Shown here: in pieces, positions 1,638-51,507 of the stretch
Position numbering within the stretch: position 1 is the first letter of the stretch
Layout of the letters: each line of letters begins with the position of its first letter
NCBI GenBank assembly: GCA_964001285.1
Contig: CAXFAF010000003.1
Location: forward strand, 8,641 to 72,640
DNA: 64,000 nucleotides
Reading direction: 5' to 3'
Source: an uncultured bacterium
Lineage (GTDB): Bacteria; Pseudomonadota; Alphaproteobacteria; MED-G09
Position numbers and translations under genes: made by a program
The notes under the pieces: generated by a model
Seen by the model: the letters and a program-made list of their open reading frames with translations, nothing else
Told to the model about the DNA's origin: nothing
The model's database searches: none

Positions 1638-1689
1638 TTTTCTTGAATAAATACAAATTTTCATGCATTTATCTTTCAAAGGTAATGAA

Positions 1690-1826: not shown

Positions 1827-1859
1827 TAAAAAACAAATTCATTAATATTGGAGTAAGTT

Positions 1860-3407
1860 ATGAGTAAAGAAGAAAACTATATAAAAATTTTTGACACAAC
1901 CCTTCGGGATGGTGAGCAGTCACCAGGAGCATCCATGTCTCTTGATGAAAAACTGCAAATTGCAGAAATTTTTGATGAAATGGGAATTGATATAATTGAA
2001 GCAGGTTTTCCTATTGCTTCAAATGGTGATTTTGAAGCTGTCAGTGAAGTTTCAAAAATTATCAAGAATGTGAAAGTTTGTGGACTTTCTAGGGCTGGTC
2101 AAAAGGATATTGATAGGGCAGGAGAGGCTTTAAAGCTAGCAAAGAATCCTAGAATACATACCTTTATTTCAACTAGTCCAGTTCATATGGAATATAAACT
2201 TCAAATGAGTGAAGAAGAGGTGCTTGATGCTATAAATTTTTCAGTATCTAGAGCGAGAAATTTGGTTGATGATGTTCAGTGGTCTGCTGAAGATGCGACA
2301 CGGACTGATAGGGAATTTTTATTTAAATGTGTCGATATGGCAATTTCATCGGGTGCAACAACAATTAATATTCCTGATACAGTTGGATATACTACCCCAG
2401 ATGAGTATTATGAAATTATAAGTTCATTGATAAACAATATCCCTTCATCTGACAAAGTAATTTTTTCTACACATTGTCATAATGACTTAGGACTTGCTGT
2501 AGCAAATTCTTTATCTGGTGTTAGAGCTGGGGCAAGACAAATTGAATGCACTATGAACGGCATAGGTGAAAGAGCAGGTAATGCAGCTTTAGAAGAAATA
2601 GTTATGTCTATGAAAGTGAGAAGTGATATTTTAAATTATAAATCAGATGTTGATACTACTCTTTTTACAAGAGCTTCAAAATTAGTTTCTTCGGTTACAT
2701 CGTTTCCAGTTCAATACAATAAAGCTATTGTTGGAAAAAATGCGTTTGCTCATGAATCAGGAATCCATCAAGATGGTATGCTTAAAAATAATGAAACATA
2801 TGAGATTATGACTCCAGAAAGTATCGGTCTAAATGAATCGACATTAGTCATGGGCAAACATTCAGGAAGACATGCTTTTAAAGAAAAAGCCAAAGAGTTA
2901 GGATATTTACTTGCAGACAATCAGTTAAATGATGCTTTTTATAGATTTAAAGACTTAGCGGATAAAAAAAAGGAAGTATTTGATGATGATATTATTGCTT
3001 TAATTGATGATGAATACTCGAAAGGTTTAGATGTAATAAAATTGATTTCTTTATTTATTCAAGCTGGCACAGAAGGGCCTCAATATGCAGATCTTACATT
3101 AGATTTTGATGGAAAGATCGTTCAAAAGAAGTGTGAAGGTGATGGGCCTGTAGATGCTTTATTTAATGCTATAAAAGCTATTGTACCACATACAGCCAGT
3201 TTACAACTATATCAAGTTCATGCTGTTACGGAAGGAACTGATGCACAAGCAGAAGTTAGTGTAAGATTGCACGAATCAGGTAAGACAGTTATTGGAAGAG
3301 GTGCTGATACAGATACTTTAGTCGCTTCTGCAAGGGCATATATAAGTGCTTTAAATCGATTAATGGTTAAAAGAGAAAAAAATGTACCCGAGGAGATAGC
3401 GAATTAA
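1860..3407 (+). CDS. leuA: 2-isopropylmalate synthase
   Basis: 515 aa with the FDTTLRDGEQSPG and HCHNDLGLAVANS motifs and a C-terminal LeuA dimerisation/regulatory domain. Confidence 0.95.
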   Translation: MSKEENYIKIFDTTLRDGEQSPGASMSLDEKLQIAEIFDEMGIDIIEAGFPIASNGDFEAVSEVSKIIKNVKVCGLSRAGQKDIDRAGEALKLAKNPRIHTFISTSPVHMEYKLQMSEEEVLDAINFSVSRARNLVDDVQWSAEDATRTDREFLFKCVDMAISSGATTINIPDTVGYTTPDEYYEIISSLINNIPSSDKVIFSTHCHNDLGLAVANSLSGVRAGARQIECTMNGIGERAGNAALEEIVMSMKVRSDILNYKSDVDTTLFTRASKLVSSVTSFPVQYNKAIVGKNAFAHESGIHQDGMLKNNETYEIMTPESIGLNESTLVMGKHSGRHAFKEKAKELGYLLADNQLNDAFYRFKDLADKKKEVFDDDIIALIDDEYSKGLDVIKLISLFIQAGTEGPQYADLTLDFDGKIVQKKCEGDGPVDALFNAIKAIVPHTASLQLYQVHAVTEGTDAQAEVSVRLHESGKTVIGRGADTDTLVASARAYISALNRLMVKREKNVPEEIAN

Positions 3408-3424
3408 CCATTAAGGAGATCTTC

Positions 3425-4471
3425 TTGAAGAGTATTTTCAATTTTTTAAGTTCTGATTTAGCAATTGATTTAGGGACCGTAAATACTCTTATATATTTAA
3501 AAGAAAATGGTGTTGTTTTAAATGAGCCTTCAGTATTAGCAATAGATACATCTGAAAGAAAAATGAATATATTGGCTATAGGAAATAAAGCCAAAAAGAT
3601 GGTAGGAAGAACGCCAGAGAATATAAAAACAGTTACTCCAATGCAGGAGGGTGTAATTGCAGATTTTTTGGCTGCAGAGGAGATGATAAAATATTTTATT
3701 AAAAAATCTTCCGATAGTAGAAAATTATTTAGTCCTAAGCTTATTATTTGTGTTCCCGCCAATTCTACTCCAGTAGAAAGAAAAGCTATTTTAGAAACTG
3801 GTCTTGCTGCGGGCGCAAGAAAAGTATATCTCATAGAAGAACCTTTAGCAGCTGCAATCGGCGCTAATCTCCCTATTATGGAAGCAAAAGGTTCGATGAT
3901 TATTGATATAGGTGGAGGTACAACTGAAATTGCAATTATTTCTCTTGGTGGTGTTGTATTTTCTAAGTCTATAAAAGTTGGAGGAAATAAATTTGATGAA
4001 TCAATAATTTCTTATTTAAGAAGAAATGAGAATATTTTAATTGGAGAAGTTACTTCGGAAGATCTTAAAAAAAATATTGGTTCAGGAATAATTCCAAAAC
4101 ATGGTGAAGGTAAAAAAATGAGAATTAAAGGTAGAGAGATTACTGAAGGTGTTCCTGTTGAGAAAGATATTTCTGAGAGACATGTTGCTGAAAGCCTTGC
4201 AGAACCGCTTTTTGAAATTGTTGAAGCTATTAAAGAAGCCCTTGAATCAGCTCCCCCTGAACTTACCGGTGATATATATGATGATGGCGTAATGCTTACT
4301 GGAGGAGGCTCCTTGTTAAAAAACACTGATATAGTAATTGAAAAGGCAACAGGGTTAAAAGTAAAATATGCTTCTGATCCATTATTATCTGTTGCTAATG
4401 GATCTGGAAAAGTATTAGAAAATATTAGAACTATGAGAAAGTCCTTAAGTTCAACTTATGCCAGTTATTAG
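3425..4471 (+). CDS. mreB: rod shape-determining actin homologue MreB
   Basis: The N-terminus DLAIDLGTVNTLIY and blocks DIGGGTTEIA and LTGGGSLL match MreB. A TTG start is required (no in-frame ATG nearby), with AAGGAG 6 nt upstream. Confidence 0.92.
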   Translation: MKSIFNFLSSDLAIDLGTVNTLIYLKENGVVLNEPSVLAIDTSERKMNILAIGNKAKKMVGRTPENIKTVTPMQEGVIADFLAAEEMIKYFIKKSSDSRKLFSPKLIICVPANSTPVERKAILETGLAAGARKVYLIEEPLAAAIGANLPIMEAKGSMIIDIGGGTTEIAIISLGGVVFSKSIKVGGNKFDESIISYLRRNENILIGEVTSEDLKKNIGSGIIPKHGEGKKMRIKGREITEGVPVEKDISERHVAESLAEPLFEIVEAIKEALESAPPELTGDIYDDGVMLTGGGSLLKNTDIVIEKATGLKVKYASDPLLSVANGSGKVLENIRTMRKSLSSTYASY

Positions 4472-4492
4472 CGGAATCAGTTTAAATAAACT

Positions 4493-6280
4493 ATGTATGA
4501 AAAAAACAACGACATAAACCGTCGTGTATTTTTTGTGGGCGGCGGAATGGTTTTACTTTCCTCATTCCTTCTTTCTAGGTTGTGGAGCCTTCAAATAAAT
4601 CAAAATAATAAGTTTTCTCTACTATCTGATAAAAATCGTATTAGATTAGTTCCGGTAAATCCTAAAAGAGGAAACTTTTTTGATAGGAACGGACAGCCTT
4701 TAGCAATTAATACATCCAATTTTAAGTTAATATTTAATCCGAATAAATCATTATTAAATGAAGAATTAATACAAAAGATCTCTCAGCATATAAGTTTAAA
4801 CTCTAATGAGCTAAAAAGAATAAATAAATCATTAAGAAAAAACTCCAACGGTAAGATCAATATTAAAGATAACCTAACCATTGAAGAGATTTATTTATTA
4901 AATAATTTGGATGTCGATTTCCAACATTTCCAAGTAGAGGATGATTCAAAAAGATCATATTTAGATTCGACAAGTTTTTCTCATGTAATTGGGTATATAG
5001 GTGAGGTTAATAATAAAAATTCGAACAGAACTGTTATTTCTGGTGTTGTAGGTCTAGAGGCAAGATACAATGATATTTTATCCGGCCATCTTGGGCACAT
5101 AAAAACGGAAGTTAATTCATCAGAAAAGAATGTTCGTGTTCTAGAAAAAAACCAAGCTATTGACGGGCAAGATATCATCTTAACTATTGATAAAAATCTT
5201 CAAAAGGATGTTTTTTCTATAATGGGTAAAAATACTGGTGCCGCAACAGTCATGAATGTACAAAATGGAGAGTTACTTGCCTTATGTTCTACCCCAAGTT
5301 TTGATAACAATAAATTTATTGATGGTTTTAGCGTAAAAGAATGGGATGAATTATCGAATAATGAAAAAAATCCATTCTTAAATAAAGCCATTAATGGCGA
5401 ATATCCTCCAGGTTCTACATTTAAAATTGTAACCGCTTTAGCTGGTTTGGAAGAAGGCCTTCTTAACCCTAACGATAAGATTTTTTGTGAAGGAAAAACA
5501 ACTTATGGAGATAGAGATTTTCATTGTTGGAAGGACAAAGGACATAAAGAAGTAGATTTAAGAAAAGCCATTAAAGAGTCTTGTGATGTTTATTTTTATA
5601 GTCTTGCTAGTAAATTAGGAGTTAAAAAGATAAGTAAAATGGCGTTTCGTTTAGGTTTAGGAAAAAATTATAATTTAATAAGCAATAATGAAAGAAAAGG
5701 ACTTCTTCCTACAAGAGAATGGATAAAAAATAATTTAAATAATAAATGGAATTTGGGGGATACCTTAGTAGCTGGTATAGGGCAGGGATATATTTCTGCG
5801 ACTCCAATTCAGTTAAATGTAATGATAGCCATGATTGCAAATAAAGGGTTTTATATTGAACCTAGTATTATTAAATCTCCCAAAATTAAAGAAAAAAGAA
5901 GATTAACAAAACCAGCAGGGTTTAATTTTGATAATGTTGATCTTATAAGGAATTTACTTGATATAGCCGTTAATGAAAGCGGAAGTAATGCCTATTCTAG
6001 CAGAATTATAAAAAATGACTGGAGAATGGCCGGGAAAACAGGAACTTCTCAGGTAAAAGAGATAACCGCTGAGGAAAGAAATCAAGAGGTAATTATTTCA
6101 AAGAATTGGGAAGAAAGAGACCATGCTCTTTTCGTTGGCTATGCACCAACAAAAAAACCTAAATATGCCGTTTCAATAGTTATTGAACATGGAGGATCAG
6201 GAAGTCAAAAAGCTGCCCCATTAGGAAGAGATATATTATTAGCCTGTCAAAATATTAAAGGCTCTAGATATAGGGTTTAA
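4493..6280 (+). CDS. mrdA: penicillin-binding protein 2 (elongasome transpeptidase)
   Basis: 595 aa with an N-terminal TM anchor and the PGSTFK (SxxK) and KTGTSQ (KTG) motifs. Followed by rodA. Confidence 0.9.
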   Translation: MYEKNNDINRRVFFVGGGMVLLSSFLLSRLWSLQINQNNKFSLLSDKNRIRLVPVNPKRGNFFDRNGQPLAINTSNFKLIFNPNKSLLNEELIQKISQHISLNSNELKRINKSLRKNSNGKINIKDNLTIEEIYLLNNLDVDFQHFQVEDDSKRSYLDSTSFSHVIGYIGEVNNKNSNRTVISGVVGLEARYNDILSGHLGHIKTEVNSSEKNVRVLEKNQAIDGQDIILTIDKNLQKDVFSIMGKNTGAATVMNVQNGELLALCSTPSFDNNKFIDGFSVKEWDELSNNEKNPFLNKAINGEYPPGSTFKIVTALAGLEEGLLNPNDKIFCEGKTTYGDRDFHCWKDKGHKEVDLRKAIKESCDVYFYSLASKLGVKKISKMAFRLGLGKNYNLISNNERKGLLPTREWIKNNLNNKWNLGDTLVAGIGQGYISATPIQLNVMIAMIANKGFYIEPSIIKSPKIKEKRRLTKPAGFNFDNVDLIRNLLDIAVNESGSNAYSSRIIKNDWRMAGKTGTSQVKEITAEERNQEVIISKNWEERDHALFVGYAPTKKPKYAVSIVIEHGGSGSQKAAPLGRDILLACQNIKGSRYRV

Positions 6281-6284
6281 AATT

Positions 6285-7427
6285 ATGAATCAAAATCTTG
6301 GACAAAATTTAATTTATAAAGAAAGAAATTTCTTTGAGAGAATATCGAGAATAAATTATGGAATACCATTTTGTTTAATAATTTTAGGTTCGACCGGCGT
6401 GCTAATGCTGTTTTCGGTTTCTGGCGGAGTGTATAACGATTTGGTTTTTAATCATATAATACGTCTTTTGATAGGTTTTTGTTTTTTTCTTTTTTTTTCT
6501 TTTATAAGTTTCAGAATTCTAAGAATAATTTCTCCACCGATATATTTCTTGATTCTGATGATGCTATTTTGGTTATATTTTTTCGATACTAATAATGTAT
6601 CAAGGTGGGTAAATTTAGGTAATACAAGTTTTCAGCCATCAGAATTCTTAAAATTTATCTTAATTATTACTATCGCTTCCTATTATAGTTTTTTTGGAGA
6701 AAATAAATCAAAGAAGTTAAGGTACAGTATTGCCCCTATTTTTTTAATTACGCTTCCTGCTTTTTTAATTATTAATCAACCAGACCTTGGAACGGCTATT
6801 TTAATTCTCATAGCTGGTTTTGCTACTATTTTTTTCTCAGGATTGTATTTAAAATGGGTATTTTTTGGTTCTCTATCAGTGTTTGCATCTATTCCGTTGA
6901 TAATAAATAATCTTAAGCCTTATCAGATGAAAAGATTAGAAGTTTTCTTTGATCCTGAAAAAGATCCTTTTGGTTCTGGTTATCATATTATTCAGTCAAA
7001 AATAGCAATAGGTTCTGGGGGATTGACAGGTAAAGGTTTTATGAACGGTACCCAAAGTAAATTAAATTTTCTTCCAGAAAAACATAATGATTTTATGTTA
7101 GCAGTTTTACTTGAAGAGACAGGTTTAATTGGAGGCATATTTATTTTTTCTATCTTTTTATATTTAATAATAATTTCCGTACACACATCAATTATAGCGA
7201 GAAGTCGATTTAGTTCTATAGCATGCGGAGCTATTGCGGTTTTGATTTTTTTATATTTCTTTATAAATTGTGCGATGATCACTGGTTTAATTCCTATTGT
7301 AGGAGTTCCAATTCCGATGTTATCTTATGGGGGATCGGCGATAATTTCTATGTGTGCAGCTATGGGCTTTGTCCTTAATGCGAGACTGAATAGGGATGTG
7401 AGGATAGAAAGTTTTCTTGATGGATAA
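6285..7427 (+). CDS. rodA: SEDS-family peptidoglycan glycosyltransferase RodA
   Basis: 380 aa polytopic membrane protein with the FtsW/RodA blocks QPSEFLK, NQPDLGTA and PIPMLSYGGSA. Confidence 0.9.
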   Translation: MNQNLGQNLIYKERNFFERISRINYGIPFCLIILGSTGVLMLFSVSGGVYNDLVFNHIIRLLIGFCFFLFFSFISFRILRIISPPIYFLILMMLFWLYFFDTNNVSRWVNLGNTSFQPSEFLKFILIITIASYYSFFGENKSKKLRYSIAPIFLITLPAFLIINQPDLGTAILILIAGFATIFFSGLYLKWVFFGSLSVFASIPLIINNLKPYQMKRLEVFFDPEKDPFGSGYHIIQSKIAIGSGGLTGKGFMNGTQSKLNFLPEKHNDFMLAVLLEETGLIGGIFIFSIFLYLIIISVHTSIIARSRFSSIACGAIAVLIFLYFFINCAMITGLIPIVGVPIPMLSYGGSAIISMCAAMGFVLNARLNRDVRIESFLDG

Positions 7428-8250
7428 AGAGTTACATCCAATTGATCAAATAATTGAGGAAAGATGCCCCAAACTCATGAGAAATAAATTTTTCTGGTCG
7501 TTGGTTAGGCCTACAATTTATAAAGTCTTTAAATATCAGACAGCAAAAAATATAACCGATGATATTTCCAATAAGTCAGGTTATGGTTGTTTTGAATATC
7601 TAACAAATCTTCTTAATTTTAATCTAGAAATTAAGAATCTGAACAATATCCCAAAAAAAGGCCCAATAATATTAGCAGGAAACCATCCTACAGGCTTAAC
7701 TGATGGAATTGTTATGTTTGAAGTCCTAAAAGACAGAAGACCTGATTATACTCTTTATGCCAATATTGACATGATAAAGTTATCCAAAGGATTTGAAGAC
7801 ATAATAATCCCGGTAGACTGGAACGAAAAAAATAAAACCGCGCAAAAGAGTAGAGAAATTTTAAAAAGAACTAAGATGACTCTTAATAAAGGAAATTGTT
7901 TGTTGGTATTTCCTTCTTCAAGGCTTTCAAAAAGGGTAGGGCTTAAATTAATTGAAAGGCCATGGCTGAATACAATTATCAAATTGTCTAAAAAATATAA
8001 TGCTCCAATAATTCCGTTCCATATGACGGGTCATAATTCTCTTTTTTATTATTTTTTAGATATTTTTAATGAGGAGCTTAAAAATATTAGTTTATTTAGT
8101 GAACTTGTTAATAAAAAAGAGTTTAAATATAAAATTACTTTTGGAAAAATAATTGATCCAGATTCTTTGAAGGCTGATCTCCAAAAAGAAACTGAGAAAA
8201 TACAAAAATATGTAGAATTTACTCTTGGTAAACCGCCTCTAATCTTGTAA
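7417..8250 (+). CDS. lysophospholipid acyltransferase (PlsC-like) family protein
   Basis: 277 aa. GNHPTGLTDG matches the HX4D acyltransferase motif and VFPSSR matches block III. Overlaps the rodA stop by 11 nt. Confidence 0.6.
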   Translation: MMDKELHPIDQIIEERCPKLMRNKFFWSLVRPTIYKVFKYQTAKNITDDISNKSGYGCFEYLTNLLNFNLEIKNLNNIPKKGPIILAGNHPTGLTDGIVMFEVLKDRRPDYTLYANIDMIKLSKGFEDIIIPVDWNEKNKTAQKSREILKRTKMTLNKGNCLLVFPSSRLSKRVGLKLIERPWLNTIIKLSKKYNAPIIPFHMTGHNSLFYYFLDIFNEELKNISLFSELVNKKEFKYKITFGKIIDPDSLKADLQKETEKIQKYVEFTLGKPPLIL

Positions 8251-8282
8251 TTTTAAGGGGTCAATAATTTTAAGAGGAACAA

Positions 8283-9554
8283 ATGAAGGAAGTTTCAAAA
8301 AACCCTGAAAATTATAATCTTTTAGATCCAAAAGTTATTGAGAGCCCTTACGATGCTTATGCAGCATATAGAGAGAATGCCCCAGTTTATTTAAGCCCCG
8401 ATACGGGGTTTTATATTGTTACCAAATATGATGATTTAAAAAGAGTTCTGACTGATTATGAATTTTTTTCTAGAGACATAGCCGCCTATTGGGAAAAGAA
8501 TGTTAAGAAAAAGAAGAAAGGGTATTGGAAGCATGGAAATAGTGTAGGAAAGGTTTTTCAAGAAAAAGGATGGCGTCAGGTTCCTTGTTTTGGAGCGGAA
8601 CCGCCCCACCATACAAGATTCAGAAAGGCGGCTAACCCATCTTTTACCGCTAGCAGGGTTAAAAAAATGGAACCCTACATAATAAATCTAATTAACGATT
8701 TAATAGATACCTTTATAAATGATGGAGAGGTAGAATTTGTAACCCAGTTTTGTATTCCGCTTCCAATGAATGTTATTCAAGATAGACTTGGGTTTCCTAA
8801 GGAAGATTTACCAAGACTTAAGGCTTGGTCCCAAGACACATCTTCAGGATTAAGTCAGATGTTAAGTGAAGAAGAGGAGATTGCGTGTGCAGAGCGATTA
8901 GTTCAATTTCAGCATTACATGGTTAAAACATTTGAAGAAAAGAAAAAGAATCCTAAAGATGATATTATTTCCGATCTTGTTCACTATGTTGATGAAGATG
9001 ACAATCATTTAAAAACTGAAGAACTAATATCAATTGTAAGTGATTTAAATATTGGAGGAAATGAAACAACCACCGATTCATTGGGAAGTGGGATGTTAAT
9101 GCTTATGCAGAAGAGAAATAAACTAGATGATTTGTTGTCAGGAAAAGCAAAATTTAAAAACTTTATTGAAGAAATTATCCGCTTGGAAACCCCCGTTCAA
9201 AGTTTATTTAGAAGAGTAAGAAAAGATGTAGAGATTTCAGGAGTCATTGTTCCTGAAGGATCTATAATAGATATGCGCTTTGGTGCCGCGAACAGAGACG
9301 AAGATCAATTTAATTGTCCAATGGAAATGGATTTAGAAAGAAAAAATCCTGGGAAACATTTAGCTTATGGTACAGCTCATCATCATTGTATAGGTGCGCC
9401 ATTAGCTCGTCAGGAAATGCGTTTGGCTTTTGAAATCCTTCTAACAAGGCTTAAAAATATCCAACTTTCAGAGGATAAAAATGATTTATTGCATCGTTCC
9501 CATTATGCCTTAAGAGGACTTAACAAATTACACTTAACCTTTGAAAAAGCTTAA
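8283..9554 (+). CDS. cytochrome P450
   Basis: 423 aa with I-helix NIGGNETTTDS, ExxR (EIIRLETP) and the heme-thiolate loop YGTAHHHCIGAPLA. Confidence 0.9.
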   Translation: MKEVSKNPENYNLLDPKVIESPYDAYAAYRENAPVYLSPDTGFYIVTKYDDLKRVLTDYEFFSRDIAAYWEKNVKKKKKGYWKHGNSVGKVFQEKGWRQVPCFGAEPPHHTRFRKAANPSFTASRVKKMEPYIINLINDLIDTFINDGEVEFVTQFCIPLPMNVIQDRLGFPKEDLPRLKAWSQDTSSGLSQMLSEEEEIACAERLVQFQHYMVKTFEEKKKNPKDDIISDLVHYVDEDDNHLKTEELISIVSDLNIGGNETTTDSLGSGMLMLMQKRNKLDDLLSGKAKFKNFIEEIIRLETPVQSLFRRVRKDVEISGVIVPEGSIIDMRFGAANRDEDQFNCPMEMDLERKNPGKHLAYGTAHHHCIGAPLARQEMRLAFEILLTRLKNIQLSEDKNDLLHRSHYALRGLNKLHLTFEKA

Positions 9555-10300
9555 AGAATCTTAGGGATAATTATTTTTCTGTCTGAAGGATATTCTTCAA
9601 ACTTTTGTTTATACCATCTGTGATGACTAATTGCCCTTGGCACAAGATTGAAGATGGTCCAAAAGAAAAATACAACACCGGAAATACTCCAAGTAAGAAT
9701 AGCCCAACCAAGCCATTCAATGATTTCCCCAAGATAATTTGGGCTTGTTATATATTTATAAAGACCGCCTTGAGGTATTTGATAATTGCCCTGTGAATTC
9801 TTCGATAGTTTCATTAGTAAATTATCTGAATGAATATTTATTATCATACCAATAATGAAAATTAAAAAACCTATAATAAATACAGGTTCAAAAAACCACG
9901 ATGTATCATACTGTTTATCCATTAAGAAAAACCAGTATCCGTGAAAAAAAGTGTTAATTGCATTAAAGGCAAAAGCCATTAATGCAACTAGAAGAGGCAT
10001 TGAGCCATCTTTTTTTATCCTTAAGGGCCAAACAATACTTCGGTTAAAATAATGTATTGACCAAATAGCCAGAAAGAAAATAAGCACTATATTCTGAAAA
10101 CCATTATACCAAAAATAATATATCCACATGAGATACAATGCTGGGCTTTCCATTAAAATCCAACCAACTTTCTTTGGAAGCGAGTACCCCCAACCGGCCC
10201 TTAAATGTCTTCCATAAGGGGCGCTAATTATAAGAAGAGTAAAAAATGTTATTACACCAATCGCTATCCATATATTTATAAGAATTTCATACATTTTCAT
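9551..10300 (-). CDS. steroid 5-alpha-reductase / DUF1295-like polytopic membrane oxidoreductase
   Basis: 249 aa, multi-TM. The C-terminal block ITSPNYLGEIIEWLGWAI is typical of the 3-oxo-5-alpha-steroid 4-dehydrogenase family. Confidence 0.65.
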   Translation of the reverse strand: MKMYEILINIWIAIGVITFFTLLIISAPYGRHLRAGWGYSLPKKVGWILMESPALYLMWIYYFWYNGFQNIVLIFFLAIWSIHYFNRSIVWPLRIKKDGSMPLLVALMAFAFNAINTFFHGYWFFLMDKQYDTSWFFEPVFIIGFLIFIIGMIINIHSDNLLMKLSKNSQGNYQIPQGGLYKYITSPNYLGEIIEWLGWAILTWSISGVVFFFWTIFNLVPRAISHHRWYKQKFEEYPSDRKIIIPKIL

Positions 10301-10350
10301 TTCTAGGTTAACATAGGGAATTAAAGAGTGATTCTTAAATAAAGGAAATT

Positions 10351-11274
10351 ATGTCGAGAAAAATATGGATAAATGGATCTTATGTTAATTGGGAAGATGC
10401 TTCTGTGCATATTTTGTCACATTCACATCAAAGAGGGTCTTTAATATTTGGTTTTACCCCCATATTTGAAAATGATAATGGTACTCATATTTTTCGATTG
10501 GATAAACATACCGATAGACTCTTTAAATCCTGTGAAACCGCAGGAATTCCTTTGAATTACAGTAAGGATGAAATAAAGGACGGCATTATTGATACTGTTC
10601 GAACAAATCCTGGAAGCAAATTCATAAAGATAAGTGTTTATATTGCCTCCGTTGAGATTGATGTTGTGCCTCAGGACCCTTTCACAACAGTTGCTATAGC
10701 TGCCTACGAGCCTCAGGAAGATATTATTGAAAAGAATTCGCAACCTTTTCATAGTTCTCAGGAGTTAAGTGTATGGGTTGAGAAAGTCCGCCATCAAAGA
10801 CGACCGGATATTATCGATCCCCAGGTCAAGATTGCAGCTAATTATACATCCCCAATGATGGCAAAATGGGAAGCTAGAAAAAACGGATATGATGAAATTA
10901 TTCTTACAGATAGTGAAGGATATGTAACTGAAGCGCCAACTTCCAATGTTTTTATTGTCAGTTCCGATGGCGTACTGATGACCGCTCATGAAGATGATAT
11001 TTTGCACGGAATTACGAGAATGAGCATTCTTGAAATAGCTGAAGATGAAGGGTTAAAAGTAAATGTCGGAAAGGTTCCTTTAAAAGATCTTGAAGAGGCG
11101 AGGGAAGTTTTTGTCACTTCCTCTTCTCACCTTGTATGCCCTGTTATTAAAATTGACGGAAACCCTGTTGGTGACGGAAAAGTTGGAGAGATTACTAATC
11201 TCTTAAAACAACGCTTTCAAGAAGTTATTAGTGGAAAAGATAATAAGTTTCAGGAATGGTTGTATAAAATTTAA
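10351..11274 (+). CDS. class IV (branched-chain / D-amino acid) aminotransferase
   Basis: 307 aa with a fold-type IV pattern, including EAPTSNVFIV and GITR. Confidence 0.75.
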   Translation: MSRKIWINGSYVNWEDASVHILSHSHQRGSLIFGFTPIFENDNGTHIFRLDKHTDRLFKSCETAGIPLNYSKDEIKDGIIDTVRTNPGSKFIKISVYIASVEIDVVPQDPFTTVAIAAYEPQEDIIEKNSQPFHSSQELSVWVEKVRHQRRPDIIDPQVKIAANYTSPMMAKWEARKNGYDEIILTDSEGYVTEAPTSNVFIVSSDGVLMTAHEDDILHGITRMSILEIAEDEGLKVNVGKVPLKDLEEAREVFVTSSSHLVCPVIKIDGNPVGDGKVGEITNLLKQRFQEVISGKDNKFQEWLYKI

Positions 11275-11281
11275 TTAAGAT

Positions 11282-12622
11282 TTAAATTCTGTCATATGAT
11301 ACTTTTCTTAAACGTGAAGTAATCAATAAGGCAAATATTACCAAACCAACAATCATACTTACCCACATTCCGCTTGCTCCCATAGGTTCGTTTATTCCGT
11401 AATATGTTAAAAAATATCCGAACGGGATAGCAAAAACCCAATAGGATATGACTAGAAACACCATTGTCATAAAGGTATCCTTATAACCTCTTAACGCACC
11501 TAGACTTCCCATGCCAATGCCATCTGGAATTTGGAAAATTGCCGCAAAAATAATAAGATGACTAGCAATTGAGAAAACCAGAACATCAGTTGTGTATAAT
11601 GAAATGAGTTTGTCACCTAATGTGAAAAGTAATGTCATATTAAATAACGCACCGAAAAAACAAAGAGAAACAGAAATGAATGATGAATAGCGTGCATCAG
11701 TAAATCTCTTTTCCCCTAATAGGTTGCCTACCCTTGTTGACGCAGCAAGACCTATTGCAAGGGGTAGCATAAAAACAATACTTGCTATACTTAATGCTAC
11801 AGCATGACCGGAGACAATATTTTCACCGAGAGGTGCGAGAATGATTGCTGCTCCTGAATACATACTCATTTCAGCAAATATTCCAAAACCTATCGGTGTC
11901 CCAAGTTTTAGAACCTCAATGGAAGTCTTTATAGATGGACCATTAAACTTACTAAATAATTTATTTTTCTTGTAAGGTTTAGAAAATAGGACGATACAAA
12001 GCATTGCAATAAACATTAGTGTCGAGACTATTGAAGTGGCGTATCCACAACCAACTCCACCCATTTCAGGAACTCCGAAATATCCATATACAAATATTAT
12101 ATCCAAGGGAATATTTATTAATGCACCGCTAAAAACAACGAAGAAAACTGGCAAGGTAAGAGTTAGACCTTCACTATAAGAACTTAATAATCGATACATT
12201 ATATAAAAAAACATACCAATTGAGATAGCCTTTAGATAAGAAATTGATATGGAGGTTATTTTTTCGTCAATGGGTAGAAGAGACATCAACTCGCTTCCGA
12301 AATAAAAAATAACAATCAAAAGAAATCCTAGGAAAAGAGTTAACCAAAATGTTTCCCTGATTTTTTGACCTATTTCCAGATCTTTTTTTGCTCCATTAAG
12401 TTGAGCTACTATCGGGATAACGGAAAAAATGATACCCGCCATAAACATATAAATTGGAAATGTAAAAGAATTAGCAATTACCAGACCCGCTAGTTGATCA
12501 GCCCCAGCTCTTCCAGCAACTATTGTATCTGTAGCTGACATGATCATAAATGATAGCTGGGATCCAAGCATCGGAACTCCTATTCGAAAGAAATGCCTCG
12601 TTTCAGCAAAAAATTTATTCAT
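11282..12622 (-). CDS. MATE family efflux transporter
   Basis: 446 aa with about 12 TM segments and a NorM/MatE-like N-terminus (RIGVPMLGSQLSFMIM). Its start overlaps the phnE stop by 8 nt. Confidence 0.85.
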   Translation of the reverse strand: MNKFFAETRHFFRIGVPMLGSQLSFMIMSATDTIVAGRAGADQLAGLVIANSFTFPIYMFMAGIIFSVIPIVAQLNGAKKDLEIGQKIRETFWLTLFLGFLLIVIFYFGSELMSLLPIDEKITSISISYLKAISIGMFFYIMYRLLSSYSEGLTLTLPVFFVVFSGALINIPLDIIFVYGYFGVPEMGGVGCGYATSIVSTLMFIAMLCIVLFSKPYKKNKLFSKFNGPSIKTSIEVLKLGTPIGFGIFAEMSMYSGAAIILAPLGENIVSGHAVALSIASIVFMLPLAIGLAASTRVGNLLGEKRFTDARYSSFISVSLCFFGALFNMTLLFTLGDKLISLYTTDVLVFSIASHLIIFAAIFQIPDGIGMGSLGALRGYKDTFMTMVFLVISYWVFAIPFGYFLTYYGINEPMGASGMWVSMIVGLVIFALLITSRLRKVSYDRI

Positions 12623-13439
12623 CGATTATGCTCTTTCGAACAGCTCTTGAAATAGTATCAATTATAGCAACCATTATAAGTATTAGTATTATGATAAAGA
12701 GTGTTTGATCCCAATATTGTGCTCGCATTCTTTCAGTTAATTGCAAACCAATCCCTCCTGCCCCTACCACGCCCAAAATTACAGCTGAACGAGTATTAGA
12801 TTCAAAGAAATAGAGACTCTGAGAAATAAAAATAGGAAAAATTTGAGGAATTAATCCATAACGAATTACCGAAGCTTTATTTGACCCGGTTGATTGCATT
12901 CCTTCGATTTGTCGAGTATCCGCATTATCGGTTGCTTCAGAAAATAATTTTCCAAGAGTGCCAACATCAGCAGTAAATATTGATAGTAATCCAGCAAAAG
13001 GTCCTAGGCCAAATGCTCTAACATAGATTATGGCCCAGATTAAAATATCTACACCTCTAATAAAGTCTAAAATACGTTTTATAAGAAATCGAAATAATCC
13101 AAATTTGAAAATTTGTCGAGAAGCGATAAAGCTGATGGGTATACAAACCAATGAAGCTAAAAATGTTCCTAAAAATGCCATCCCAAGTGTCTGCGCTAAT
13201 CCTTTAAAAATAGAATTAAAGTTCCAGCTAAAGAAATCGTTCCAGGTAAACATTGCAGTCAAAACAGGTTTCATATTTGACAGACCAGAAATTATCTTAC
13301 CTATAGAGAAATCAAAATAAATTACGCAGAAAACAAGGTAAATAAAGGCTAAAACGCAACCTAAAAAGGATAATGGAGAGCGCCTCCAGAAAGGCTGAAA
13401 TACAGTTGGACAAAGGGCTATTGTATCTTTTTCAGTCAT
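12615..13439 (-). CDS. phnE: phosphonate ABC transporter permease
   Basis: 274 aa with a PhnE-type EAA loop, LFSEATDNADTRQIEGMQSTG. Confidence 0.85.
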   Translation of the reverse strand: MTEKDTIALCPTVFQPFWRRSPLSFLGCVLAFIYLVFCVIYFDFSIGKIISGLSNMKPVLTAMFTWNDFFSWNFNSIFKGLAQTLGMAFLGTFLASLVCIPISFIASRQIFKFGLFRFLIKRILDFIRGVDILIWAIIYVRAFGLGPFAGLLSIFTADVGTLGKLFSEATDNADTRQIEGMQSTGSNKASVIRYGLIPQIFPIFISQSLYFFESNTRSAVILGVVGAGGIGLQLTERMRAQYWDQTLFIIILILIMVAIIDTISRAVRKSIIDE

Positions 13440-14316
13440 TCAATTCTCCGATAACCCTTTGTCTAATACTTCCAGATATTAAATCGATAGTAATAACAGT
13501 TAAAATAATAAGGAGGATAATTGCACTTACTTCTTCGTAATAATTAAAGTTAATAACAAGGTAAAGTTCCTGGCCTATTCCTCCCGCTCCGACAAACCCA
13601 ATAACTGTTGATGCCCTAATGTTTATTTCAAATCTTAAAAGGGCATAAGAAATTATATTTGGAAGGACTTTGGGTATAATGCCGTATCTCATTTCAGACA
13701 CCCAATTTCCTCCATGTGATCGAATAGCTTCACAAGATTTTAGGTCTGCGTTTTCATGAACTTCAGAAAACAGCTTACCCAAAGCTCCTGTTGTGTGAAT
13801 GGTTATGGCAATTATACCAGCAAGAGGACCGACACCAAGCGCCCAAACGAAAAGTATGGCGAAGATGATTTCAGGAACGCCTCTTAAAAATTCTAAAAAT
13901 CTTTTTACTAAATGATAACTATATATATTTGGAGTTATATTTTTAGCAGATAGAAAGCTTAAAATGAGCGCAAACAAAACCCCTAAAAAAGTTGATAGGA
14001 CAGCCATATTAAAGGTTTCGTATAAAAGAACACCGTATTTTTTAAAATTAAAATACCAGTAAGCTATCGATCCTTCAGTTTTAGAGTTTTCAAATAAGAG
14101 GTTAGTTTCAAGATTAGGGAATATTTTTATTGCGTAATCCCCAAGTCTAGGAAAGCCATTAATTATCTTAGAAAAATTAAAATCTATTACTGACGAGCTC
14201 ATAAAAAAAGCTAGAGTAAAAATAAAAAAAATAAAGATAGTCCACAATCTTCTGCTTTTTATTTGTCCAGAGTAAAGTGACGCATGGTTTTCAAGAAGAG
14301 TATTATTCATTTTCAA
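13432..14316 (-). CDS. phnE: phosphonate ABC transporter permease (second copy)
   Basis: 294 aa with a PhnE-type loop, LFSEVHENADLKSCEAIRSHG. Overlaps both neighbours. Confidence 0.85.
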   Translation of the reverse strand: MKMNNTLLENHASLYSGQIKSRRLWTIFIFFIFTLAFFMSSSVIDFNFSKIINGFPRLGDYAIKIFPNLETNLLFENSKTEGSIAYWYFNFKKYGVLLYETFNMAVLSTFLGVLFALILSFLSAKNITPNIYSYHLVKRFLEFLRGVPEIIFAILFVWALGVGPLAGIIAITIHTTGALGKLFSEVHENADLKSCEAIRSHGGNWVSEMRYGIIPKVLPNIISYALLRFEINIRASTVIGFVGAGGIGQELYLVINFNYYEEVSAIILLIILTVITIDLISGSIRQRVIGELND

Positions 14317-48579: not shown

Positions 48580-48991
48580 TCTTTATAATACTAAGATCTT
48601 AAATTTATCTTCAGATATTCCTAGATTGGGAAAATTAGATAATCCTCAAGTTTCTGCGACTGTGGTTAGTAAATTATGTGGATCAAAAGTTACTGTTTAT
48701 TTGAATACCAAGGATGACTTTGTTGTTGATTTTTCTCACGAAGTTAAAGCTTGCTCCTTAGGGCAGGCTGCCTCATCAGTTATGGCAAGAAATGTTATTG
48801 GTTCGAGCTCCAGCGAATTATTAGAACTTAAAAAAAGTATGTATGAAATGTTAAAAAATGAAGGACTTCCACCCAAAGGTAAATGGGATGATTTAAAATT
48901 TCTTCAACCTGTTAAAGACTATAAAGGTAGACATGCATCTGTAATGCTAACTTTTGATGCCGTTGAAGAATGTTTGGTTAAGGTAAAATAA
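48569..48991 (+). CDS. NifU/IscU N-terminal-domain-like Fe-S scaffold family protein
   Basis: Contains LCGSKVTVYL and EVKACSLGQAASSVM. I prefer the ATG at 48569 (11-nt overlap with cysS) to the track start at 48530. Confidence 0.65.
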   Translation: MVNDLYNTKILNLSSDIPRLGKLDNPQVSATVVSKLCGSKVTVYLNTKDDFVVDFSHEVKACSLGQAASSVMARNVIGSSSSELLELKKSMYEMLKNEGLPPKGKWDDLKFLQPVKDYKGRHASVMLTFDAVEECLVKVK

Positions 48992-49021
48992 AAAAAGGGA
49001 ACCCACATCGAGTTCCCTTTT
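48991..49021. terminator. bidirectional intrinsic terminator
   Basis: AAAAGGGAAC-ccacatcga-GTTCCCTTTT. It is followed by T4 on the + strand (end of the NifU-like gene) and T7 on the - strand (end of the candidate ncRNA). Confidence 0.7.
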
Positions 49022-49221
49022 AAAGGACCTAATCGCCCCCGATTAAGCCTGGCAAGTCGCTCTCTAAGTATAGAGTTTATCCCTTTCAGGTAAACTTACT
49101 AAGCCTAGAGTGGTTATTCTCAGGATATCGCTATCCCTACCTTCTCCATGGGTCAAAGACCAGTCAACCCTCAATGCGGCTTGTCACCCGCCCAACGATT
49201 ATTGGTCATTTCAATCGTCAC
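48992..49221 (-). ncRNA. candidate stand-alone structured RNA, family unassigned
   Basis: Gene-free GC-rich block (hand count 86/180 = 48% at 49021-49200, against 18% at 49261-49320). On the minus strand: TTGACC (49255-49250), an 18-nt spacer, TAGGAT (49231-49226). GNRA hairpin GGGAUA-GCGA-UAUCCU (49137-49122), whose G-U pair would be A-C in + orientation. Hairpin AGUUUA-ccugaaaggga-UAAACU (49096-49074). A 10-bp long-range helix joins 49207-49196 to 49035-49026. Ends in a T7 terminator. Confidence 0.55.
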
Positions 49222-49274
49222 AATTATCCTACACATAATAACTGATGCCGGTCAATTATGTGATGATGTTTTTT

Positions 49275-49303
49275 TGTGGATAAAAGAATTTTTCTGTGGA
49301 TAA
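49275..49303 (-). promoter_or_regulatory. two perfect DnaA boxes (TTATCCACA on the minus strand) in direct repeat
   Basis: TGTGGATAA occurs at 49275-49283 and 49295-49303, 20 bp centre to centre. They lie between the divergent ncRNA candidate and yidD. Confidence 0.6.
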
Positions 49304-49350
49304 TTTTTTAAATTAATTTATAGCAATATAGAATAGCTTTTTTAGTTTTT

Positions 49351-49590
49351 ATGAATATAGCAAGTAAAATATCAATTATTCTCATCAAGGGTTATAAATA
49401 TTTAATTTCTCCTTTTCTTGGGAAGTCATGTAGGTTTGAACCTTCTTGCTCCACCTATGCTTTAGAAGCTTTTAGTAGATATGGATTCTTTAAAGGTTTT
49501 AAATTATCATTAATTCGTATAATTCGTTGTAACCCTTGGGGCGGTTATGGTTATGATCCTGTCCCTATAAATGAAGAAAAAAGCAAATAA
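49351..49590 (+). CDS. yidD: membrane protein insertion efficiency factor YidD
   Basis: 79 aa with [21 protein letters not shown]......G..KG..L...RI.RCNPW. Confidence 0.9.
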
Positions 49591-51507
49591 ATGCCAAAAA
49601 TAACACTGCCAGATGGAACGGTTAAGGAGTTTGATAATCCGTTAAATTTTGATGAAATAGCTTTATCAATTGGAAAAGGTTTAGCCAAAGCAACTGTTGC
49701 CGGTTCATTAAATGGTAAACTTGTAGATGCTTCAGAAATGATAGATAAGGATTCAAATGTTGTTATTATTACAAATTCTGATGAAGAAGGAATAGAAATA
49801 ATTAGACATTCATGCGCACATTTGTTTGGGCATGCAATTAAACAGTTATATCCAAATGCAAAAATGGCCATAGGGCCAACAATTGAAAATGGTTTCTATT
49901 ATGATATTGACCTTGAGGAATCCTTAAGTGAGAAAGATCTAGAAAAAATTGAAAAAAGAATGAAGGAGTTAGCTCAAACAGAATATCCAGTAATTAGAGA
50001 AGTGGTTACAAGAAAGCAAGCAATTAAAACATTTACTGAAAGAGATGAACCCTACAAGATAGAAATAATTAATGAGATACCAGATGATGAAATAATTGCT
50101 CTTTATCATCATAATGAATACATAGATATGTGTAGAGGACCTCATGTTACCTCCGTTCGACATTTAAAAGCTTTTAAACTAACTAAAATTGCCGGAGCTT
50201 ATTGGAGAGGTAAATCTGACAACAAAATGCTTCAAAGAATTTATGGAACAGCATGGACAAGTGAAAAAGAATTAAAAAATCATTTAGTTTTGCTTGAAGA
50301 GGCAGAAAAAAGGGATCACAGGAAATTGGGAAAAGAAATGGACCTTTTTCATTTTCAGGATGAAGCGCCTGGAATGGTTTTTTGGCATTCAAATGGTTGG
50401 TCAATTTACAGAGAGCTCGAAGATTATATTCGGAGAAAGATATCAAAAAAAGGATACCAAGAAATTAAAACACCTCAAATATTGGATAAAGAATTATGGG
50501 TAGAGTCAGGACATTGGGATAAATATGTAGAGAACATGTATACGACTATCATTGATGATAGAGAATTAATGATTAAACCAATGAATTGTCCAGGACATGT
50601 TCAAATATATAATCAAGGCATTAAAAGTTATAAGGATTTACCCTTAAGAATGGCAGAATTTGGTTCTTGCCATAGAAATGAGCCGTCCGGTGCTCTTCAT
50701 GGATTAATGAGGGTGCGTAATTTTGTTCAAGATGATGCACATATTTTTTGTACCGAAGATCAAATTGAAAAAGAAACAATTAACTTTTGTGAGTTATTGC
50801 AAGAAGTTTACAAGGAGCTAGGTTTTGAAAAAATATCTATTATGTATGCTGATAGACCGGAACAAAGGGTTGGTTCTGATGAAATTTGGAATAAAGCAGA
50901 GTCTGCTTTATTGAATGCCGCTAAAGCAACAGGACTTCCTTTTGATGAAAATAAAGGTGACGGAGCATTTTATGGTCCCAAACTAGACTTTTACCTTCAT
51001 GATGCTATTGGAAGAATTTGGCAATGTGGAACTCTTCAGGTTGATTTTAATATGCCAGGTAGATTAGGGGCTAGTTATATTGGTGAAGATAATAATAAAC
51101 ATACACCTGTTATGCTTCACAGAGCTATTTTGGGAAGTCTTGAAAGATTTACAGGAATCCTAATTGAGCATTATGAGGGGCGTTTCCCTTTATGGTTGTC
51201 GCCGATACAAGTTGTTGTTGCGACAATTACATCCAAAGCTAATGATTATGCTAAAGAAATTGAAGCTGCTTTAATAAGTAAAGGTATAAGGGTCATACTA
51301 GATATAAGGAATGAAAAGATTAGTTATAAAGTAAGAGAGCATTCTGTTAACAAAATTCCATTTATATTTGTGGTAGGCAATAATGAAACGGATAATAAAA
51401 CAATCGCATTAAGAAGATTGGGGTCTAAAGAGCAGGAAATTTTGAATTTAGATGACAGTATAGCATTGTTAGAAGATAATTCTTTGCCGCCAGATATGAA
51501 CAATTAA
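49591..51507 (+). CDS. thrS: threonine--tRNA ligase
   Basis: 638 aa with an N-terminal TGS domain, an editing domain (HSCAHL), the class II core ([30 protein letters not shown]) and an anticodon-binding domain. Confidence 0.95.

What the first reader, a model, noticed from the sequence alone, without database searches (positions are those of the whole stretch)
48992..49260. GC-rich, gene-free, structured element: candidate novel stand-alone RNA on the minus strand
The longest intergenic region in the window (359 nt) contains a block at about 48% GC flanked by about 18% GC spacer (hand counts). This contrast is typical of structured RNAs in AT-rich genomes. Minus-strand reading gives a sigma70-like promoter (TTGACC, 18-nt spacer, TAGGAT) and a strong terminator (10-bp stem plus U7). 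It also gives a GCGA (GNRA) tetraloop hairpin closed by a G-U pair that would be A-C on the other strand, and a second hairpin with a UGAAA-containing loop. A 10-bp helix pairs the 5' region (49207-49196) with the 3' region (49035-49026). Nothing lies downstream to regulate, because the next gene is convergent, so it is a trans-acting or catalytic RNA rather than a riboswitch. I could not match it to tmRNA, SRP or RNase P (details are in noticed_but_rejected). At about 225 nt, 6S is the nearest known class by size, but the multi-hairpin fold is not 6S-like.
Basis: seen in the sequence. Interest (0 to 1): 0.65.

Follow-up and report, generated by a model that had tools for sequence, protein, structure and literature searches.

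The report
Hyper-abundant new structured RNA, DnaA-box promoter
The GC-rich gap holds a real gene for a 200-230 base folded non-coding RNA that matches no described RNA family, is among the most abundant transcripts of the marine PS1/OCS116 bacteria in ocean samples, and always carries two perfect DnaA (replication initiator) binding sites just upstream of its promoter.

Summary
Window 48992-49350 is the longest ORF-free gap, and its core is 47% GC against a 19% GC spacer. On the minus strand lie a sigma70-type promoter, a transcription start at G 49219 and an intrinsic terminator (49021-48990).

The RNA is conserved in 18 of 25 species of one marine alphaproteobacterial order, PS1/OCS116 (not Pelagibacter). 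Across 38 distinct sequences, 94.6% of cells are paired, 33 pairs show double-sided changes, and one pseudoknot covaries. Many G-U pairs fix the strand.

Rfam 15 gives no match. RNase P RNA and tmRNA lie elsewhere in the genome. No ORF is conserved.

Marine metatranscriptomes from many studies hold contigs that cover only 49023-49219. Their depth is tens to hundreds of times that of tmRNA-like contigs, and about 10^5 times that of thrS mRNA in one run.

Two phased perfect DnaA boxes (TTATCCACA, about -56 to -84) accompany every copy, whatever the genomic context. This box pair occurs nowhere else in these genomes.

The function is not shown. My best reading is a trans-acting, protein-binding structured RNA whose synthesis is controlled by DnaA.

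Side finding: the whole order seems to lack Ffh, FtsY and SRP RNA.

The parts
49295..49303 (-). Distal DnaA box TTATCCACA, about -76 to -84 from the start site
   Evidence: Perfect consensus. Present upstream of all 18 copies examined, in three genera and three genomic contexts. The box pair occurs once per genome, only at this gene.
49275..49283 (-). Proximal DnaA box TTATCCACA, about -56 to -64, 20 bp from the distal box and in the same orientation
   Evidence: The 1.31-Mb genome holds only 13 perfect boxes.
49250..49255 (-). -35 hexamer TTGACC
   Evidence: Position conserved in relatives: TTGACC or TTGACG in most of g1 and in g3, TTGATT/TTGCTT in the type-b copies, TTGTTT in g2.
49226..49231 (-). 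-10 hexamer TAGGAT
   Evidence: Relatives have TAAAAT, TAGAAT or TATAAT at the same position. The start site lies 7 nt downstream.
48986..49219 (-). The RNA gene. Start at G 49219; primary transcript about 230 nt, ending in the T run. Transcript contigs cover 49219-49023 (197 nt).
   Evidence: Metatranscriptome contigs end at 49219 (runs X2, X11) and at 49023-49026, with none on the flanking genes. An ortholog gives a 215-nt contig with adapter remnants at both ends. CM score is 243.6 bits.
49194..49219 (-). P1 hairpin (8 bp) with 10-nt loop L1, AAAUGACCAA (AUGACCA invariant)
   Evidence: Four pairs with double-sided changes, 98.8% of cells paired.
49176..49191 (-). P2 hairpin GCGG/CCGC (invariant). 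Loop L2 (49187-49180) forms the 5' strand of the pseudoknot.
49150..49170 (-). P3 hairpin with loop UGGUC (49162-49158), complementary to GACCA of L1 (candidate kissing pair)
   Evidence: P3 stem: 7 of 8 pairs covary. The kissing pair is almost invariant (only its outermost pair departs, unpaired in 5 sequences), so it is neither supported nor refuted by covariation.
49111..49148 (-). P4 (UGG./.CCA), a large conserved internal loop, and P4a hairpin capped by a GNRA tetraloop (GCGA, 49131-49128)
   Evidence: P4a: 5 of 5 pairs covary, 100% paired. The loop is GCGA, GCAA, GAAA or GUAA in relatives.
49062..49110 (-). P5 variable arm. Its base helix covaries. It is about 60 nt longer in genus g2, with two extra short GC-rich hairpins capped by UUCG/CUCG/UUAG-type loops.
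   Evidence: helix 8: 4 of 4 pairs covary.
49050..49061 (-). Invariant AGCG, then the 3' strand of the pseudoknot (CUUGCCA, 49056-49050), which pairs with L2 (UGACAAG, 49186-49180)
   Evidence: Pairs 39-243, 40-242 and 41-241 of alignment A3 change on both sides (AU/UG, CG/UA, AU/GC).
49028..49047 (-). P6 hairpin CUUAAUCG-GGGG-CGAUUAGG, nearly invariant in sequence
   Evidence: 100% paired, only wobble changes.
48990..49021 (-). Intrinsic terminator hairpin plus U7. It reads as a terminator on both strands and also ends the convergent iscU-like gene.
   Evidence: Four pairs covary.

Best explanation
SHOWN.
- Window 49303-48986 (minus strand) is a self-contained gene module: two phased DnaA boxes, a sigma70-type promoter, a highly structured non-coding RNA of about 200-230 nt, and an intrinsic terminator.
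- The RNA folds into six helices (P1-P6) tied together by at least one covarying pseudoknot.
- Its peripheral arm P5 is free to vary and expand, while several loops and two helices are invariant in sequence.
- It is confined to the marine alphaproteobacterial order PS1/OCS116 and belongs to no Rfam family.
- It accumulates in the sea far above the level of tmRNA.

INFERRED, with my odds.
(a) It acts in trans as a folded particle that binds one or more proteins, either as an RNP core or as a sequestering regulator in the manner of 6S RNA. It is not a simple base-pairing sRNA. About 0.4.
(b) DnaA bound at about -60 and -80 sets its transcription, which would couple the RNA's level to replication or growth status. 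About 0.6 that DnaA regulates it. The sign is unknown; the upstream position favours activation.

Neither the partner nor the cellular process is identified.
For: Real gene and strand.
- The -35/-10 elements and the terminator keep their positions in all relatives.
- There are many G-U pairs that would be A-C on the other strand.
- Transcript contigs cover only 49023-49219 and end at the predicted start site. The same holds for an ortholog.

Structure.
- 38 distinct sequences give 94.6% paired cells, against 30-45% when partners are slid.
- 33 pairs change on both sides, and 0 of 500 shuffles reach the observed score.
- The pseudoknot covaries at 3 pairs.

Not a known family.
- Rfam gives nothing at the gathering threshold or at E<=10 in four lineages.
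- RNase P RNA is at C7:44632-44979 and permuted tmRNA at C7:72430-72747.
- No ORF is conserved.

Abundance.
- Runs from about 30 studies hold the RNA.
- X2: word depth 1,600-9,300 in the depth bins across the core, against 61 for the best same-organism tmRNA contig.
- X25 and X27: 0.2-1.5 million, against 600-14,000 for tmRNA-like contigs; thrS mRNA stands at 8 in X27.

DnaA link.
- TTATCCACA-N11/12-TTATCCACA lies upstream of all 18 copies in three different contexts.
- The pair occurs once per genome, only at this gene (twice in G004, which has two copies of the gene). It is absent from every genome that lacks the RNA.
- The genome holds only 13 perfect boxes. dnaA is present.

Trans action.
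- The downstream gene is convergent.
- The flanking genes differ between genera.
Against: - No protein partner, target or phenotype is known.
- The strand was not measured directly. Only assembler contigs were available, with no stranded raw reads.
- Contig word depths are crude. They sum strain variants, and the most extreme values come from one study (P2).
- DnaA binding is inferred from sequence only. Boxes at -56 to -84 could also serve DnaA titration rather than promoter control.
- Six of ten genomes of genus g2, three of them 93-97% complete, lack the module entirely. The function is therefore dispensable in close relatives.
- A terminator with a U tail, a preceding A/U-rich stretch and an hfq gene also fit an Hfq-dependent sRNA.
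Confidence: 0.6

Rival explanations
1. It is an Hfq-dependent, base-pairing regulatory sRNA. One invariant loop (for example L1, AAAUGACCAAU) would be the seed that pairs with several mRNAs.
For: It has an intrinsic terminator with U7 preceded by an A/U-rich stretch. An hfq homolog is present and CsrA is absent. It stands alone with its own promoter.
Against: - The fold is far more elaborate than that of typical sRNAs: six helices and a covarying pseudoknot.
- The best seed candidate, L1, is complementary to L3 of the same RNA.
- Exact matches to anti-L1 or anti-L6 words in the genome show no enrichment at gene starts.
- A crude duplex scan singled out no gene and did not single out dnaA (uninformative).
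- Abundance tens to hundreds of times that of tmRNA-like contigs (six- to tenfold in run X29) is unusual for a stoichiometric sRNA.
Confidence: 0.18
2. It is a functional analogue of 6S RNA, binding RNA polymerase holoenzyme in genera where no 6S RNA is detectable.
For: Rfam 6S finds nothing in genera g1 and g2. The g3 6S-like RNA has no BLAST relative in this genome. The size and the very high abundance fit 6S.
Against: - There is no Rfam 6S score at all on this RNA.
- The fold is not a rod with a central bubble.
- Genus g3 has both a near-threshold 6S (44 bits) and this RNA.
- Six g2 genomes have neither.
Confidence: 0.1
3. It is a ribozyme or a ligand-sensing RNA acting on its own. It would be a globular catalytic or aptamer fold.
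For: It has a compact pseudoknotted architecture, invariant junction nucleotides, a GNRA loop and a peripheral arm that tolerates expansion. These features are shared with RNase P RNA and group I introns.
Against: No substrate, cleavage site or associated gene is known. Nothing lies downstream to regulate. No known ribozyme or riboswitch model matches.
Confidence: 0.08
4. The DNA is the functional element. The box pair would be a chromosomal DnaA-titrating or DnaA-recharging site (datA- or DARS-like), with the strong transcription unit only modulating it.
For: It is the only double perfect DnaA box in each genome. The boxes lie upstream of the core promoter rather than over it.
Against: Selection clearly acts on the RNA fold: 33 covarying pairs, G-U pairs and a pseudoknot. 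The RNA also accumulates massively. Neither is explained by a DNA-only role. The two roles could coexist.
Confidence: 0.05
5. It is a small protein-coding gene, or a cis-acting leader of yidD-thrS on the plus strand.
For: This copy has a 51-codon plus-strand ORF (49148-49303) and a 36-codon minus-strand ORF.
Against: - Neither ORF is kept in relatives. Starts, lengths and frames all change.
- Substitutions preserve base pairs, not codons.
- Transcript contigs stop at 49219 and never reach yidD.
- The module occurs away from yidD in g2 and in the type-b copies.
Confidence: 0.02

Closest known systems
6S RNA (SsrS, Rfam RF00013)
   Same: A stand-alone, very abundant, stable RNA of about 150-200 nt that acts in trans by binding a protein machine. 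No 6S RNA is detected in this genus.
   Different: No sequence or structure match. The fold is multi-hairpin and pseudoknotted, not a rod with a bubble. It coexists with a 6S-like RNA in genus g3.
Lineage-specific hyper-abundant marine ncRNAs of unknown function: Yfr103 of marine picocyanobacteria and Tan1 of Thalassoarchaea (PMC5069720); IMES RNAs (Weinberg et al. 2009, from my own knowledge)
   Same: A structured RNA of 200-330 nt confined to one planktonic lineage, among the top transcripts in situ, sometimes with paralogs, function unknown. A conserved motif upstream of the Yfr103 start site was also proposed as a transcription-factor binding site (PMC5069720).
   Different: No homology; the IMES models are in Rfam and do not match. 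This one is from PS1/OCS116 alphaproteobacteria and carries an identifiable regulator site (a DnaA box pair).
CcnA of Caulobacter crescentus (PMC8959179)
   Same: An alphaproteobacterial ncRNA tied to the replication and cell-cycle circuitry through its promoter.
   Different: CcnA is controlled by CtrA, lies at the origin and works by base pairing with the ctrA and gcrA mRNAs. It has no sequence or structural similarity to this RNA, and nothing here suggests mRNA pairing.
Orphan GC-rich-IGR structured RNA candidates from the Breaker laboratory pipelines (PMC2704228, PMC11109978)
   Same: Found in the same way, as a GC-rich island in an AT-rich genome. Complex fold and no assigned function.
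   Different: It is not among the Rfam-deposited motifs. It is unusually abundant and has a defined promoter architecture.

Membership tests
6S RNA (RF00013) | Scores with the family covariance model | tested here: not met
   No hit on the element even at E<=10. A whole-genome search of 25 genomes hits only another locus, in g3.
6S RNA (RF00013) | Extended irregular duplex formed by the 5' and 3' ends, with a large central bubble | tested here: not met
   The consensus fold is six local or nested helices plus a pseudoknot. The 5' end forms a local hairpin.
RNase P RNA (RF00010) | Model match; one copy per genome | tested here: not met
   The genome's RNase P RNA is at C7:44632-44979 with 338 bits. 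The element gives no hit.
tmRNA (two-piece alphaproteobacterial) | tRNA-like domain and tag reading frame | tested here: not met
   ARAGORN finds none in the element. It finds the permuted tmRNA (tag ANDDYAELPLAA) at C7:72430-72747.
SRP RNA (RF00169) | Helix 8 motif (GNAR loop, symmetric loop with AGCA) and the partner protein Ffh | tested here: not met
   No model hit. No helix-8 word anywhere in the genome. No Ffh or FtsY in any of the 25 genomes.
CsrB/RsmZ-type protein sponge | CsrA/RsmA protein encoded; repeated GGA loops | tested here: not met
   tblastn finds no CsrA homolog in the genome. The P5 arm is purine-rich, but it is not an array of GGA loops.
Hfq-dependent trans-acting sRNA | Intrinsic terminator with U tail, Hfq present, conserved single-stranded seed with mRNA targets | tested here: inconclusive
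   The terminator with U7 and an hfq gene are present. No seed-target relation was found.
DnaA regulon member | Consensus DnaA boxes at a conserved position relative to the promoter; DnaA binding; DnaA-dependent expression | tested here: inconclusive
   The sequence part is met strongly. Binding and dependence cannot be tested with these tools.

The most novel reading that the evidence does not exclude
The RNA is the core of a previously unknown ribonucleoprotein or catalytic particle, a new class of globular RNA. Its production would be set directly by the replication initiator DnaA, tying a major cellular process to replication status in an abundant ocean bacterium.

In the boldest form, it takes part in ribosome-linked or membrane-protein handling in an order that has lost the SRP pathway. 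I give that form about 0.03, because six relatives lack both SRP and this RNA.
Probability: 0.25. Interest if true: 0.9.

Novelty: categorically new. Interest (0 to 1): 0.74.

Why it matters
Complex-folded RNAs that are both new and hugely abundant are rare. Past examples, such as 6S RNA and OLE (and HEARO, whose RNA proved to be the guide of IscB nucleases), each opened a field.

This RNA comes from a widespread marine clade and dominates some metatranscriptomes, so it must already be inflating the 'unassigned' reads in ocean data sets.

A perfect, phased DnaA-box pair is wedded exclusively to its promoter. That gives a concrete, testable regulatory link between replication initiation and a structured RNA. 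I found no described precedent for such a link.

The RNA is also small enough (about 200 nt) for direct structural and biochemical work.

Tried and rejected
- **Rfam.** I ran it at the gathering threshold and at E<=10 on this copy and on four other lineages. Only noise came back: RmaA and Atu_C8, both driven by the terminator.
- **Class-wide CM search (400 genomes).** The only outside hits were terminators, plus one full-length 23-bit hit that lies inside an infC-like ORF. All rejected.
- **Pattern scan of 185,579 species genomes.** All 80-odd hits outside PS1/OCS116 are chance matches in GC-rich or coding DNA.
Not kept in relatives.
- **Coding potential.** No ORF is conserved. The invariant AUG at 49149-49147 opens 5-11 codon frames whose peptides differ freely, and it forms part of J3/4 and P4.
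- **oriC idea.** The boxes also sit directly after a tRNA (g2) or after the thrS 3' end (type-b copies), with no AT-rich unwinding region. One genome has two copies.
- **SRP RNA idea.** This arose because no SRP RNA is found in the order. I rejected it because Ffh and FtsY are absent too, there is no helix-8 motif, and six genomes lack the RNA.
- **Target prediction.** Exact anti-loop words and RNAduplex over 1,203 start regions were uninformative, and dnaA is not an outlier.
- **Direct strand measurement.** Not possible. All runs offered were assembler contigs.

Full report
**1. The observation**

Window 48992-49350 (359 nt) is the longest stretch of the window without an ORF of 75 aa or more. 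Its core, 49023-49219, is 47.2% GC. The spacer 49261-49350 is 18.9% GC and the window average is 32.9%.

On the minus strand the consensus scan finds TTGACC-18-TAGGAT (49255..49226). It also finds a 13-pair terminator (49021..48993) followed by a T run.

Both strands fold better than shuffled sequence, with z = -3.1 on the minus strand and -4.7 on the plus strand. Folding energy therefore says nothing about the strand.

**2. Is it a known RNA?**

Rfam 15 gives nothing on the element at the gathering threshold. At E<=10 it gives nothing either, in this copy or in four other lineages, apart from terminator-driven noise. ARAGORN finds nothing in the element.

The genome's own housekeeping RNAs are elsewhere:
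- RNase P RNA at contig C7:44632-44979, 338 bits.
- A permuted two-piece tmRNA at C7:72430-72747.

Rfam 6S finds only a near-threshold RNA (44 bits) at a different locus in genus g3. That genus also has the present RNA. The g3 6S-like RNA has no BLAST relative in this genome.

**3. Who has it?**

Record titles of the matching contigs name the organisms as PS1 clade, OCS116 cluster or 'Rhodobiaceae' MAGs. These are marine alphaproteobacteria, not Pelagibacter.

BLAST and a covariance model (R1) find the RNA in 17 of the 25 species genomes of the family, which is also the whole GTDB order. An 18th genome, G011, has the promoter at a contig end, with the gene cut off. By genus:
- g1: 11 of 12 genomes.
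- g3: 3 of 3.
- g2: 4 of 10. Three g2 genomes that are 93-97% complete lack it even at E<=1.

In 400 other genomes of the class, only terminator-driven hits and one hit inside an infC-like ORF appear. A motif scan of 185,579 species genomes gives real copies only in this family. A metagenome scan added 24 loci.

**4. Structure and strand**

A model-guided alignment of 41 copies (38 distinct) supports six helices:
- P1: 49219-49194.
- P2: 49191-49176.
- P3: 49170-49150.
- P4/P4a with a GNRA loop: 49148-49111.
- P5, a variable arm: 49110-49062.
- P6: 49047-49028.

The terminator follows P6.

Across the proposed structure, 94.6% of cells are paired, against 30-45% when the partners are slid by 1-3 columns. 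Thirty-three pairs change on both sides, and 0 of 500 shuffles reach the observed covariation.

The loop of P2 (UGACAAG, 49186-49180) pairs with CUUGCCA (49056-49050). Three of these pairs change on both sides, including CG to UA and AU to GC, so this is a real pseudoknot.

The loops of P1 (GACCA) and P3 (UGGUC) are complementary and nearly invariant (only the outermost pair is unpaired, in 5 sequences). A kissing interaction is plausible but untested.

Many pairs are G-U in many sequences and would be A-C on the other strand. Together with the conserved -35/-10 elements and terminator, this fixes the minus strand.

P1 covaries locally while P6 is constant.

In genus g2 the P5 arm carries about 60 extra nucleotides, which form two more short GC-rich hairpins with UUCG/CUCG/UUAG-type loops. 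This is the behaviour of a peripheral element on a globular RNA.

No ORF is conserved on either strand.

**5. Expression**

Two searches found the RNA in 40 marine RNA runs, spread over about 30 studies, some of them tiny (7-25 million letters).

Laid on the window, the contigs cover 49023-49219 only. Nothing lies on the iscU-like gene, and the only piece on yidD is a divergent (4 mismatches in 41 nt) fragment in run X11. Two contigs end exactly at 49219, seven bases after the -10 hexamer. For the ortholog of genome G005, one contig of 215 nt with adapter remnants at both ends runs from the predicted start into the terminator loop.

Contigs stop before or inside the terminator hairpin. Whether the 3' end is trimmed therefore stays open.

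Word depths in the same runs (crude, because they sum strain variants):

| Run | This RNA | Comparison |
|---|---|---|
| X2 | 1,600-9,300 across the core (5,021 in the deepest single contig) | 61 for the best same-organism tmRNA contig |
| X25, X27 | 0.2-1.5 million | 600-14,000 for tmRNA-like contigs; 8 for thrS mRNA (X27) |
| X29 | 530-1,830 | 9-320 for tmRNA-like contigs |

The most extreme values come from one study. The order of magnitude still places this RNA among the most abundant non-ribosomal transcripts of these cells.

**6. The promoter carries two DnaA boxes**

A first-reader note on the same window (e1-4593721) had flagged two TGTGGATAA words at 49275-49303. I tested whether they belong to yidD-thrS or to the RNA.

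Read in the RNA's orientation, TTATCCACA-N11/12-TTATCCACA lies at about -84 to -56 upstream of every one of the 18 copies examined. That includes:
- the g2 copies, where the boxes follow a tRNA gene;
- the second ('type b') copies, where the boxes follow the 3' end of thrS.

A pattern search of all 25 genomes finds this pair once per genome (twice in G004, which has two RNA genes), always at the RNA gene. It is never found in genomes without the RNA, and the reversed control pattern gives zero hits.

The 1.31-Mb genome holds only 13 perfect boxes and encodes DnaA. The box pair is therefore part of the RNA gene module.

The boxes lie on the same helical face, upstream of the -35 element. That position is typical of an activator. 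Binding and sign of regulation are not shown. It is not an origin: there is no AT-rich unwinding element in two of the three contexts, and one genome has two copies.

**7. Context**

In g1 and g3 the order is cysS > iscU-like > < RNA | yidD > thrS >. In g2 the RNA lies between a dipeptidase gene and a tRNA.

In G004 two inverted RNA copies flank an inverted yidD-thrS segment; G006 shows the same type-b arrangement, but its contig ends before a second copy could be seen.

The gene downstream of the RNA is always convergent, so the RNA acts in trans.

**8. Mechanism**

Shown: a compact pseudoknotted fold, invariant loops and helices (P2, P6), an expandable peripheral arm, very high steady-state level, and a dedicated promoter with a DnaA-box pair.

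Inferred: the RNA works as a folded particle that binds protein, either as an RNP core or as a sequestering regulator (about 0.4). DnaA controls its synthesis (about 0.6).

Alternatives, with my odds:
- Hfq-dependent base-pairing sRNA, 0.18. An hfq gene is present and csrA is absent, but no seed-target relation was found.
- 6S-like RNA polymerase regulator, 0.10.
- Ribozyme or sensor, 0.08.
- DNA-level DnaA titration site, 0.05.
- Coding gene or cis-acting leader, 0.02.

**9. Comparison with earlier work**

An earlier agent of this scan, working on a related genome (e1-689826), reached the same basic reading: a new structured RNA downstream of two DnaA sites. I saw that note only after my own tests.

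New here are the in-situ abundance and transcript ends, the exclusive genome-wide pairing of the box pair with the gene, the distribution including the g2 absences, the covarying pseudoknot, and the paralogs.

In kind, the closest things are lineage-specific hyper-abundant marine ncRNAs such as Yfr103 and Tan1 (PMC5069720). There is no homology to them.

**10. Side finding**

No genome of the order has:
- a detectable small SRP RNA (0 of 25 at E<=0.1);
- an SRP54-type GTPase domain, meaning neither Ffh nor FtsY (0 of 25 apart from two weak partial hits (25.8 and 20.5 bits) covering only the N-terminal third of the domain, while all 14 control genomes ring).

My tblastn finds SecA, SecY, YidC, RpsP, TrmD and RplS in this genome, but neither Ffh nor FtsY. 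dapF lies directly beside rpsP, where Pelagibacter has ffh next to dapF (PMC2704228).

The RNA studied here is not a simple substitute, because six genomes lack both it and SRP. An order-wide loss of SRP in free-living bacteria would be remarkable and deserves its own follow-up.

Noticed in passing
Whole genome G000 and all 25 genomes of the order; G000 contig C42:2170-3530: The SRP pathway appears to be missing from the whole PS1/OCS116 order. There is no small SRP RNA (RF00169), and no SRP54-type GTPase domain (Ffh, FtsY) in 25 of 25 genomes, while all control genomes ring. tblastn with E. coli Ffh and FtsY finds nothing in G000, although SecA, SecY and YidC are found. dapF sits directly next to rpsP, where relatives have ffh.
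   Followed up: partly
L009/L018 (G004:C1:51774-54618) and L013 (G006:C8): In G004 two diverged copies of the RNA gene (types a and b, each with its DnaA-box pair) lie in inverted orientation around an inverted yidD-thrS segment. G006 shows the type-b side of the same arrangement; its contig ends before any second copy. This suggests an inversion between, or creating, the two copies.
   Followed up: partly
Genus g3 loci L145-L147; G000 whole genome: An Rfam 6S match just under threshold (42-44 bits, 149 nt) exists only in genus g3. Genera g1 and g2 show no 6S RNA, and the g3 RNA has no BLAST relative in G000.
   Followed up: partly
G000 contig C7:44999-45007: A single perfect DnaA box (in the context AAGTTATCCACAA) lies 20 nt after the 3' end of the RNase P RNA gene. 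Several other single boxes share the AGTTATCCACA context.
   Followed up: no
L095 (JAPOHW010000052.1, 678 nt): A 678-nt contig filed under an 'Actinomycetota bacterium' MAG matches, over the 110 nt I compared, the OCS116 (g2) copy of this RNA gene. It is probably a mis-binned contig.
   Followed up: no
window 48990-49021: The terminator hairpin is flanked by an A run on one side and a T run on the other. It can therefore end both the iscU-like gene (plus strand) and the RNA (minus strand). The same arrangement holds in g2 with a different convergent gene.
   Followed up: partly
window 49351-51507: yidD is detached from rnpA and yidC. Its stop codon abuts the thrS start codon. This yidD-thrS pair is conserved in g1 and g3 (also the first-reader note e1-4593732).
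   Followed up: no
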